This document shows positions 21,547 through 23,658 of a DNA stretch of 64,000 nt, piece after piece. Made by a program: the position numbers and the translations under genes. Under the pieces are notes generated by a model. That model had not been told where the DNA came from. It did no database searches and was given only the letters and a program-made list of their open reading frames with translations. Every line of letters begins with the position of its first letter. Position 1 is the first letter of the stretch. Source of the stretch: the human T2T-CHM13v2.0 reference genome, Homo sapiens; NCBI RefSeq assembly GCF_009914755.1, contig NC_060929.1. One strand, written 5' to 3'.

Positions 21547-22591
21547 TGGATTCTATTAAAAAATGATTTTAGGGCAGGAATAAACCAGTCTGTGTTCAAA
21601 GACTTGAGGAAAGCTTTGTACATGATATAGGGTCTGAGTTGAATATAGACAAAAACTAAATAAAGCAGAGACAGAGGGATGACATTCTAGGACAGCAGGA
21701 AACTCAATGAGATAAGACTAGTAAATGGGAGAGAGAAATGATTTAGTAACAGGTAATGGTCTCTGAAACCTTTTAACCTTTGCTATTTGTTCATCTTAAA
21801 TGTTAATGTATTTTTAATAATATATTTACTCACATTGGATAGATAATCTCAATTTATAGTAAACAATGTCTTGTTACTAAAAGGGCTATGCTGAAGTTAA
21901 CAGAAACATACTATTTACCATATATGTTTAAATCTCGAAATCCACGGCCATATAAAAAAGGACTATGAATTTGGGCAAAATGCCATTGAAGCATACGTAC
22001 AATTGTATTTTGTATGTTATTTCATATGTACACAGGAATTGTACATGGAAAATGAGAAAGAGAAGACATAAAACATGAAATAAATTATGTTTGAGTTCAC
22101 TGGTATTTCATTTATCCAGATTATACACATTTATTGTCAAAAGCTTTATGGATTTTTCTGGGTGAAGTTTATACATATATTCATGATCATATGTTACAAA
22201 GCATTTAAGTATATAGCTTCATAGCTATACACATGAAATTAAATATTAAAAATACTGGTTTTTTTTTCTAATTTAACCCTCTTCTAGAAAAAGATCAAAA
22301 AAAAGTTCCCTCAGCATGTGCACATCTGTTTCCATTGAGGATTTTAAGAAAATGTTTAAAAGCTGCATTTAAGTGAATAATTTCCAGCCTGGGAATGGTG
22401 AGCCAGCTCAGAACCAAAGGCTGTTCATCTAACCAATAAGCAGGTGTAAATGAATATTTCATGAACACTGTCTGTAATTTTCTTTTTACTTGCACGGCAA
22501 CAATCCCTCCCCACCCTCCCCGCATCTTCCTGTACTGTTAGTCCTCTCTCCAAAAAGAGAGGGGTGTTTGAATGCCACTTAAAATTCTTAC

Positions 22592-22770
22592 CAGTATCTG
22601 GTATGGTGTCATTCTTTACTGTTCACATTATTTTTTATCTTTTGGATTTTGCTTTCAAAAGCCATTTGTTCTACATCAGGCAGCTGCATTTTCTTTCAGC
22701 ATTAAGGAAGAAGAATACCAAAAGTACTTACCTAAAAAACAAAACACAAAAAAGGGAAAGATTAAAGTAT
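22592..22770 (-). other. Candidate recursive splice site (AG|GTAAGT) with 140-nt RS-exon (22731-22592)
   Basis: Minus strand reads 'atactttaatctttccc...ttgtgttttgttttttAG|GTAAGTacttttgg...cagatactg|GTAAGA'. AG is at 22733-22732 and GTAAGT at 22731-22726. The downstream donor GT is at 22591-22590. Confidence 0.65.
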
Positions 22771-23099
22771 ATTCATGGAGATGCTTGATGTCTTGACAAA
22801 GCACCAAAGTGGGGATGAAAACACCCATAGCACCTAATGGCCCATGGCAAATAAAGCATGTAAAGCCACCAAGGAATGACTGTAGAAGTTGCACCCTTGT
22901 CTGAAACTTAAGACAGCAAAAGGGGTATGCCTTGGTTATTTTAAAAATGAATAGGTAAAGCAAAGTTTTGATTTTCTTTTATTTTCACTTTTTTAAACAA
23001 CTTACATTATCTCAGACTGTAATCCATCACGTCTCTGTCCTTCAACAGGTTCTAACTGCCTACAATAATGGCTTTTATCATTATGAGCCAGAAGACTTT

Positions 23100-23341: not shown

Positions 23342-23658
<317 letters not shown>

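What the first reader, a model, noticed from the sequence alone, without database searches (positions are those of the whole stretch)
22592..22790. Candidate recursive-splicing ratchet point with a poison RS-exon on the minus strand
Seen: the minus strand has a possible branch motif (ctttaat), a long U/C-rich tract with no AG for ~50 nt, then tttttAG immediately followed by the consensus donor GTAAGT (22733-22726). A second good donor (CTG|GTAAGA) lies 140 nt downstream and defines an exon 22731-22592. That exon is frame-shifting and has stops in all three frames (TAA at codon 10, TAA at nt 2-4, TGA after ...ENAAA). The site lies in ~1.8 kb with no TE I recognise. Known: vertebrate recursive splice sites in very long introns (reported in CADM1/2, ANK3, PDE4D, OPCML, ROBO2, NTM, HS6ST3, NCAM1) have this architecture: 3'ss, regenerated 5'ss, and a PTC-containing RS-exon needed for exon definition. 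Inference: the host intron is removed in two steps here, and RS-exon inclusion could send alternative-promoter transcripts to NMD. It may be one of the reported sites or a new one.
Basis: partly seen in the sequence, partly recalled or inferred. Interest (0 to 1): 0.85.

Follow-up and report, generated by a model that had tools for sequence, protein, structure and literature searches.

The report
Known PDE4D recursive splice site
This is a real recursive splice site in a giant intron of the human PDE4D gene, where the intron is cut out in stages, but it was already published in 2018, so the finding is a correct rediscovery rather than a new one.

Summary
On the minus strand a 27-nt pyrimidine tract and a 52-nt AG-free zone lead into AG|GTAAGT (window 22733-22726). 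A second donor, CTG|GTAAGA, lies 140 nt downstream, and the interval has stops in all three frames.

The site is already published. Seven landmarks fetched from the same assembly lie at distances from it that differ from the hg19 distances in Zhang et al. 2018 (PLoS Genet, PMC6110456) by 13-83 nt over 86-520 kb. This places the site at hg19 chr5:58764261.

Zhang's tables give that site:
- MaxEnt 3'ss strength 13.39 and phastCons 1;
- junction reads from two upstream exons;
- a saw-tooth step;
- lariat reads whose 5' end is the site itself, branching just upstream of the next recursive site 86 kb downstream.

New here: all four upstream exons I examined end in phase 2. Including the 140-nt exon would therefore put a TAA stop at its nt 2-4. 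The regenerated donor also pairs better with U1 than the downstream donor.

Use of the 140-nt exon and its decay by NMD remain inferred. Novelty: already known. Interest: low.

The parts
22761..22767 (-). Candidate branch-point motif CTTTAAT. The likely branch A is at 22762, 31 nt upstream of the first base after the AG.
   Evidence: Read directly. The position is typical (Zhang et al. report branch points 20-50 nt upstream of RS sites). No lariat read for this branch point was seen in the tables read, so it is inferred.
22734..22760 (-). Polypyrimidine tract (24 of 27 bases C or T) inside a 52-nt AG-free zone.
   Evidence: Zhang et al. S1 Table gives a MaxEnt 3'ss strength of 13.39 for the site.
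22732..22733 (-). AG of the recursive 3' splice site.
   Evidence: Mapped to hg19 chr5:58764261 by seven landmarks. Junction reads from upstream exons to this site are in Zhang S2 Table (column names).
22726..22731 (-). GTAAGT, the donor regenerated after the first splicing step.
   Evidence: Lariat reads with their 5' end at hg19 58764261 and branch points at 58678257 and 58678270 are in Zhang S4 Table. U1 duplex proxy -10.5 to -10.7 kcal/mol after joining to exon ends ATG or GCG.
22728..22730 (-). TAA, the stop codon actually read if the RS exon is included, because the host intron is phase 2.
   Evidence: All 4 of 4 upstream exons examined end with 2 nt of a codon, and the common exon starts with the third. 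Phase-2 translation gives W*.
22592..22731 (-). Candidate 140-nt RS exon (GC 33.6%), frame-shifting, with stops in all three frames.
   Evidence: Its use in RNA is not shown by anything read here.
22586..22591 (-). GTAAGA, the downstream donor (CTG|GTAAGA) that would define the RS exon.
   Evidence: It is the only GT within 500 nt downstream that matches at least 7 of 9 consensus positions, apart from the RS site itself. U1 duplex proxy -8.0 kcal/mol.

Best explanation
Window 22733-22726 (minus strand) is the published recursive splice site of PDE4D at hg19 chr5:58764261. By gene order and timing it is 'RS2' of Zhang et al. 2018. It lies in the intron, 370 to 773 kb long, that separates the isoform-specific upstream exons from the first common exon.

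Step 1 (shown in print): the donor of an upstream exon is spliced to this AG. This removes 118 to 520 kb, depending on the promoter used.

Step 2 (shown in print): the junction regenerates a donor NNG|GTAAGT. That donor is spliced to the next recursive site 86 kb downstream (hg19 58678237), as the lariat reads show.

Step 3 (inferred from the same architecture and the saw-tooth pattern): that next site regenerates a donor, which is spliced to the common exon 166 kb further on.

Inferred: recognition of the AG is helped by exon definition through the donor CTG|GTAAGA 140 nt downstream. If that donor is used instead of the regenerated one, a 140-nt exon is included. Because the intron is phase 2, the exon then reads xxG-TAA, a premature stop that should trigger NMD. 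The regenerated donor pairs better with U1, so skipping of the RS exon is the expected main outcome.
For: Identity of the site.
- In the same assembly, AG|GTAAGT sites with strong pyrimidine tracts lie 85,981 nt downstream and 217,463 nt upstream of the site. The hg19 spacings are 86,024 and 217,508. Each was the only AG|GTAAGT among the AGGT sites with at least 15/20 upstream pyrimidines listed for its 10-kb locus.
- Four upstream exon ends and the common exon start lie at distances that differ from hg19 by -83, -62, -34, +13 and -79 nt (sequences).
- Zhang's S1 Table has no other putative PDE4D site between hg19 58703318 and 58880118.

Function, all from Zhang et al. 2018 supplementary tables.
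- 3'ss strength 13.39 and phastCons (100-way, over the AGGT) 1.
- PA1 junction reads, total/unique, from the exon ending at 58882154: 17/15, 41/25, 26/21, 9/7 and 8/8 at 60 min, 120 min, 4 h, 16 h and steady state.
- PA1 junction reads from the exon ending at 59064072: 15/14, 19/15, 5/5 and 5/4 (column names).
- Saw-tooth fold changes of 2.0-3.0 with permutation P of 4e-4 or less.
- Lariat reads 58764261 to 58678257 or 58678270: 23, 30 and 7 reads in three SRR runs, and two rows of 38 in PA1 RNase R 120 min.

- U1 duplex energies: -10.5 and -10.7 kcal/mol for the regenerated donor, -8.0 for the downstream donor.
- Only one plausible donor lies within 500 nt downstream.
- The phase-2 reading gives W*.
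Against: Nothing read here shows the 140-nt exon in RNA. Zhang et al. predict RS exons for only 50% of saw-tooth sites and give no per-site list in the tables I could read.

The same paper states that recursive splicing in human cells is not constitutive and can coexist with one-step removal.

The papers disagree about who reported the site first. The legend of Zhang's S5D Fig calls RS2 novel, while their S4 Table sheet '230 RS sites by Sibley et al.' lists 58764261. My equation RS2 = 58764261 rests on gene order and on the time at which signal first appears, because the figure itself could not be read.

The U1 duplex energy is a proxy, not MaxEntScan. I could not recompute the 13.39 score or inspect any other species' sequence.
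Confidence: 0.9

Rival explanations
1. The recursive site is real, but the 140-nt interval is not its RS exon. Either the site is recognised without exon definition (zero-nucleotide, as in Drosophila), or another donor is used.
For: No RNA evidence for the 140-nt exon was seen. Zhang et al. found junction-supported RS exons at only 50% of saw-tooth sites. The interval's GC content (33.6%) is below that of the next 140 nt (42.9%) and of the window (36.9%), so it does not look like a normal exon.
Against: CTG|GTAAGA is the only GT within 500 nt downstream that matches at least 7 of 9 consensus positions. Low GC is what Zhang et al. report for RS exons in general. Papers that cite Sibley et al. 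describe vertebrate RS sites as using exon definition.
Confidence: 0.25
2. It is only an ordinary poison cassette exon. The AG is a normal acceptor, the 140-nt exon is sometimes included, and no re-splicing takes place at the junction.
For: The architecture (acceptor, 140 nt, donor, stops) is that of any cassette exon.
Against: Published lariat reads begin exactly at the GT that abuts the AG (hg19 58764261) and branch 20 and 33 nt upstream of the next recursive site. This requires that GT to act as a donor. A saw-tooth step is also reported. Zhang's pipeline removed sites that overlap annotated cassette exons.
Confidence: 0.04
3. It is a chance juxtaposition of splice-like motifs with no function.
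For: At 0.007 expected sites per strand per 64 kb, a 3-Gb genome would hold hundreds of such sites by chance. Only 342 of 36,870 putative sites in Zhang et al. had junction reads.
Against: Junction reads, a saw-tooth step, lariat reads and phastCons 1 are all reported for this very position.
Confidence: 0.01

Closest known systems
PDE4D recursive splice site at hg19 chr5:58764261 (Zhang et al. 2018, PLoS Genet 14:e1007579, S1-S4 Tables; also in their sheet '230 RS sites by Sibley et al.')
   Same: It is the same nucleotide position, by seven-landmark registration, in the same host introns and on the same strand.
   Different: Nothing differs in the site itself. Three points are added here: the T2T and window coordinates, the phase-2 reading that makes the TAA inside GTAAGT the operative stop, and the U1-pairing comparison of the two donors.
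Vertebrate RS sites with RS exons (Sibley et al. 2015, Nature 521:371; CADM1/2, ANK3, OPCML, NCAM1 and others). Known to me only through citing papers, because the paper is not held.
   Same: A strong acceptor abuts GTAAGT in an intron of several hundred kb in a long, brain-expressed gene. A downstream donor is present and the intervening exon contains a premature stop. The regenerated donor is predicted to win the competition.
   Different: Exon definition, and RS-exon inclusion after the regenerated donor is blocked, were tested experimentally at some of those sites. They were not tested here for this site.
The two sister sites in the same intron: hg19 58981769 and 58678237
   Same: Both are AG|GTAAGT with 17/20 pyrimidines. 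Both give xxG-TAA in phase 2. Both have saw-tooth and junction support.
   Different: Their candidate downstream donors differ: 38 nt (TGG|GTAAGT) at the upstream site, and 208 nt (ATG|GTAAAT, weak) at the downstream site, against 140 nt here.
Drosophila ratchet points (Ubx; Duff et al. 2015). Recalled and seen through citing papers only.
   Same: Juxtaposed acceptor and donor, with stepwise removal of a long intron.
   Different: The fly sites were first described as zero-nucleotide sites without an RS exon. Vertebrate sites are described as depending on exon definition.

Membership tests
Vertebrate recursive splice site (RS site with RS exon) | A strong 3' splice site (branch motif, pyrimidine tract, YAG) directly abutting a 5' splice site consensus (GTRAGT). 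| tested here: met
   TTTTTTAG|GTAAGT, 24/27 pyrimidines, 52-nt AG-free zone. It is the only such site among 217 minus-strand AGGT in the window.
Vertebrate recursive splice site (RS site with RS exon) | Lies deep inside a very long intron, on the sense strand of the host gene. | tested here: met
   The hub annotation puts the window inside PDE4D (minus strand) with no exon in the window. Flanking exons were found 117,810 to 520,066 nt upstream and 252,388 nt downstream in the assembly.
Vertebrate recursive splice site (RS site with RS exon) | RNA-seq junction reads joining the upstream exon to the site. | not testable with these tools
   Reported for hg19 58764261 from two upstream exons in PA1 cells (Zhang S2 Table). 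No read data are available here.
Vertebrate recursive splice site (RS site with RS exon) | A saw-tooth step of nascent or total RNA coverage at the site. | not testable with these tools
   Reported: fold change 2.0-3.0 with P of 4e-4 or less at 60 min, 4 h, 16 h and steady state in PA1 (Zhang S3 Table).
Vertebrate recursive splice site (RS site with RS exon) | The regenerated donor is used (a lariat with its 5' end at the site). | not testable with these tools
   Reported: lariats from 58764261 to branch points 58678257 and 58678270 (Zhang S4 Table).
Vertebrate recursive splice site (RS site with RS exon) | Conservation of the AGGT core across vertebrates. | not testable with these tools
   phastCons 100-way over the AGGT = 1 in Zhang S1 Table. 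No other vertebrate genome is available here.
Vertebrate recursive splice site (RS site with RS exon) | A downstream donor defines a short RS exon that carries a premature stop. | tested here: inconclusive
   The sequence fits: CTG|GTAAGA at 140 nt, stops in all frames, TAA at nt 2-4 in the true phase. Use of that donor in RNA was not seen in any source read.
Vertebrate recursive splice site (RS site with RS exon) | The regenerated donor is at least as strong as the RS-exon donor, so the RS exon is normally skipped. | tested here: met
   U1 5'-end duplex proxy: -10.5 (ATG+site) and -10.7 (GCG+site) against -8.0 kcal/mol. This is a proxy, not MaxEntScan.

The most novel reading that the evidence does not exclude
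All three PDE4D recursive sites are AG|GTAAGT, and all four upstream exons examined feed them in phase 2. Any failure to re-splice, at any of the three sites, from any of these promoters and whichever downstream donor is used, would therefore place a TAA at the second codon of the retained sequence. The most novel reading not excluded is that this phase-and-motif match is selected as a fail-safe for long-isoform PDE4D output. On that reading, the 140-nt exon at this site would be a regulated NMD switch rather than a mere splicing aid.
Probability: 0.12. Interest if true: 0.4.

Novelty: already known. Interest (0 to 1): 0.15.

Why it matters
PDE4D is a drug target and a disease gene, and its long isoforms all have to clear an intron of 0.37 to 0.77 Mb. 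The recursive sites are where that removal can fail. They are also where an antisense oligonucleotide or a variant could turn the long isoforms off. For the scan, the value lies in calibration. A reader with no tools picked out, from sequence alone, the one site in 64 kb that the literature supports with junction, saw-tooth and lariat evidence. For biology it adds only small points: T2T coordinates, the operative stop codon, and the relative pairing strength of the two donors.

Tried and rejected
- Sibley et al. 2015 and Duff et al. 2015 are not held. I could not see which PDE4D sites they named. I rely on what Zhang et al. 2018 and a 2021 review say about them.
Its main text names Pde4d only in the discussion. 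Whether the orthologous mouse site is used therefore stays open.
- The 2026 preprint shows one PDE4D site with five upstream exons but gives no coordinate in the text. Its overlap table is a bioRxiv supplement, which is closed.
- The figure PDFs of Zhang et al. cannot be read.
- Earlier findings of this scan were not open.
- A script that looked for a coding first exon ending in TG|GT in locus L007 found only a spurious (TG)n reading frame. Reading the sequence directly showed that the exon ends in GCG|GTGAGT.
- Rfam at gathering thresholds found nothing in the window. Tandem Repeats Finder found only a (CAAA)9 array at 23623-23656.
- MaxEntScan and SpliceAI are not available, so the published score of 13.39 was not recomputed.
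- A second literature search (PDE4D + recursive: 59 papers hold both terms, 30 listed) added no further paper on this site.

Full report
**1. The observation**

- CTTTAAT lies at 22767-22761.
- A pyrimidine tract runs 22760-22734 (24 of 27 bases C or T).
- AG is at 22733-22732 and is followed at once by GTAAGT at 22731-22726.
- A second donor, CTG|GTAAGA, has its GT at 22591-22590.
- The interval 22731-22592 is 140 nt, which is not a multiple of three.

The only slip is that '22733-22726' is the whole AGGTAAGT octamer, not GTAAGT alone.

The nearest upstream AG is 52 nt away. Of the 4 AGGTAAGT octamers in the window (2 per strand), this is the only one with a pyrimidine tract: 17/20, against 7-10/20 for the others.

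Among 4304 minus-strand AGs, 31 have at least 17/20 pyrimidines and at least 30 nt free of AG. Three of those 31 are followed by GT and one by GTAAGT. The chance expectation for the joint feature is 0.007 per strand per 64 kb. That is rare for one window, but across a genome it would still give hundreds of such sites. The motif is therefore a good lead and not proof.

**2. What it is: registration to a published site**

A full-text search for 'recursive splicing' and 'PDE4D' led to Zhang et al. 2018 (PMC6110456). I read passages of its main text, its supporting-information captions and its supplementary Tables S1-S4.

These tables list three PDE4D sites that have junction reads and a saw-tooth pattern: hg19 chr5:58981769, 58764261 and 58678237.

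The window's own assembly is held, and the 301 nt around the site match it only once. I fetched stretches at the offsets predicted from hg19 and compared the distances.

| Landmark | Distance from window 22731 in the assembly | hg19 distance | Difference |
|---|---|---|---|
| AG\|GTAAGT, 17/20 pyrimidines, downstream | 85,981 | 86,024 | -43 |
| AG\|GTAAGT, 17/20 pyrimidines, upstream | 217,463 | 217,508 | -45 |
| Upstream exon end, hg19 58882154 | 117,810 | 117,893 | -83 |
| Upstream exon end, hg19 59064072 | 299,749 | 299,811 | -62 |
| Upstream exon end, hg19 59188994 | 424,699 | 424,733 | -34 |
| Upstream exon end, hg19 59284314 | 520,066 | 520,053 | +13 |
| Common exon start, hg19 58511794 | 252,388 | 252,467 | -79 |

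Each of the two AG|GTAAGT sites was the only AG|GTAAGT among the AGGT sites with at least 15/20 upstream pyrimidines listed for its 10-kb locus. The exon positions come, with the sequences.

Zhang's S1 Table has no other putative PDE4D site between hg19 58703318 and 58880118. That interval contains the whole window.

The window site is therefore hg19 chr5:58764261. I put the odds of identity at about 97%.

**3. What is published about that position**

Zhang's tables give the following.
- MaxEnt 3'ss strength 13.39, and phastCons (100-way, over the four AGGT bases) 1.
- PA1 4sUDRB-seq junction reads from the exon ending at 58882154, total/unique: 17/15 at 60 min, 41/25 at 120 min, 26/21 at 4 h, 9/7 at 16 h and 8/8 at steady state.
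- Junction reads from the exon ending at 59064072: 15/14, 19/15, 5/5 and 5/4, starting at 120 min (column names).
- A saw-tooth step with fold change 2.0-3.0 and permutation P of 4e-4 or less.
- Lariat reads whose 5' end is 58764261, with branch points at 58678257 and 58678270. These lie 20 and 33 nt upstream of the next recursive site. There are 23, 30 and 7 reads in three public runs, and two rows of 38 in PA1 RNase R at 120 min.

The lariats are direct evidence that the GT abutting the AG acts as a donor, and that the intron is removed in at least three pieces.

[quoted passage not shown] The 140-nt interval was therefore not an annotated exon in UCSC Known Genes at that time.

Who reported the site first is not clear from what I could read. 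The legend of S5D Fig says RS1 and RS3 were reported by Sibley et al. and RS2 is novel. By gene order and by the time at which signal first appears, RS2 is 58764261. Yet the S4 Table sheet headed '230 RS sites by Sibley et al.' also lists 58764261. Sibley et al. 2015 and Duff et al. 2015 are not held. Either way the site has been in print since 2018 at the latest.

**4. How it works**

The following steps are shown in print:
1. An upstream donor is spliced to the AG at 22732.
2. The regenerated donor at 22731 is spliced to the next recursive site 86 kb downstream.

The third step is inferred from the same architecture and from the saw-tooth pattern: that next site is re-spliced to the common exon 166 kb further on.

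- **Upstream exons.** Their sequences read MMHVNNFPFRRHSWI-, MAQQTSPDTL...FTVAHT-...SWPSSFQGLR- and ...AITSAESS-. From memory I recognise the first three as the PDE4D3, PDE4D5 and PDE4D4 N-termini. Those names come from no call.
- **Phase.** All 4 of 4 exons end with two bases of a codon, and the common exon supplies the third, giving ...C/R/G-FDVDNG. The host intron is thus phase 2. If the 140-nt exon is included, the reading is xxG-TAA. The operative stop is the TAA inside GTAAGT itself, at nt 2-4 of the exon.
- **Regenerated donors.** All four exons end in G (ATG, ATG, GCG, TGG), so each regenerates NNG|GTAAGT.
- **Donor competition.** I used duplex energy with the U1 5' end as a proxy for donor strength. 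The regenerated donor scores -10.5 (ATG) and -10.7 (GCG) kcal/mol, and the downstream donor -8.0.
- **RS-exon donor.** CTG|GTAAGA is the only GT within 500 nt downstream that matches at least 7 of 9 consensus positions.
- **Composition.** The interval's GC content (33.6%) is not raised over its surroundings. This is what Zhang et al. describe for RS exons in general.

The expected main outcome is therefore skipping of the RS exon, that is, true recursion. Inclusion would be a minor path that ends in NMD.

I see no sequence basis for a promoter-selective poison effect among these four exons. Other upstream exons were not examined.

**5. What stays open**

No source I could read shows the 140-nt exon in RNA, tests exon definition at this site, or identifies the branch point upstream of 22732. 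The same paper reports that human recursive splicing is not constitutive. I could not inspect any other species' sequence, and the conservation figure is Zhang's. Mouse usage could not be checked.

**6. Comparison and verdict**

The site meets every sequence-level criterion of a vertebrate recursive splice site that I could test. The RNA-level criteria are met in print. It is the known site, not a relative of it.

Novelty: already known. Interest is low. The finding has merit as a correct blind call. The small additions are the T2T and window coordinates, the phase-2 TAA, and the donor comparison. The sister sites share the same AG|GTAAGT and the same in-phase TAA.

Noticed in passing
L004 (G000:C5:60499241-60509240), site at T2T chr5:60,504,195; L002 (G000:C5:60195709-60205708), site at 60,200,751: The two sister recursive sites of PDE4D (hg19 58981769 and 58678237) are also AG|GTAAGT with 17/20 pyrimidines. 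Both give xxG-TAA in phase 2. Their candidate downstream donors lie at 38 nt (TGG|GTAAGT, as strong as the site's own donor by U1 pairing, -10.3 kcal/mol) and at 208 nt (ATG|GTAAAT, weak, -5.3 kcal/mol) respectively.
   Followed up: partly
L003 4916, L006 1081, L007 1131, L008 1198 (last exon bases): All four isoform-specific PDE4D exons that splice across this intron end in phase 2 with G at -1 (ATG, ATG, GCG, TGG). All therefore regenerate a similar donor at each recursive site.
   Followed up: yes
window 59995 (minus strand); window 934 and 60487 (plus strand): These are the other three AGGTAAGT octamers in the window. They have only 7-10 of 20 upstream pyrimidines and a nearby upstream AG, so they are not acceptor-like and look like chance octamers.
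   Followed up: no
Zhang et al. 2018: S5D Fig legend versus S4 Table sheet 2: The legend calls PDE4D RS2 a novel site, while the lariat table sheet headed '230 RS sites by Sibley et al.' lists the same coordinate, 58764261. The two statements cannot be reconciled without Sibley's Table S1.
   Followed up: partly
window 23623-23656: A short (CAAA)9 tandem array about 900 nt upstream (in the sense of transcription) of the recursive site, inside a stretch the hub lists as masked.
   Followed up: no
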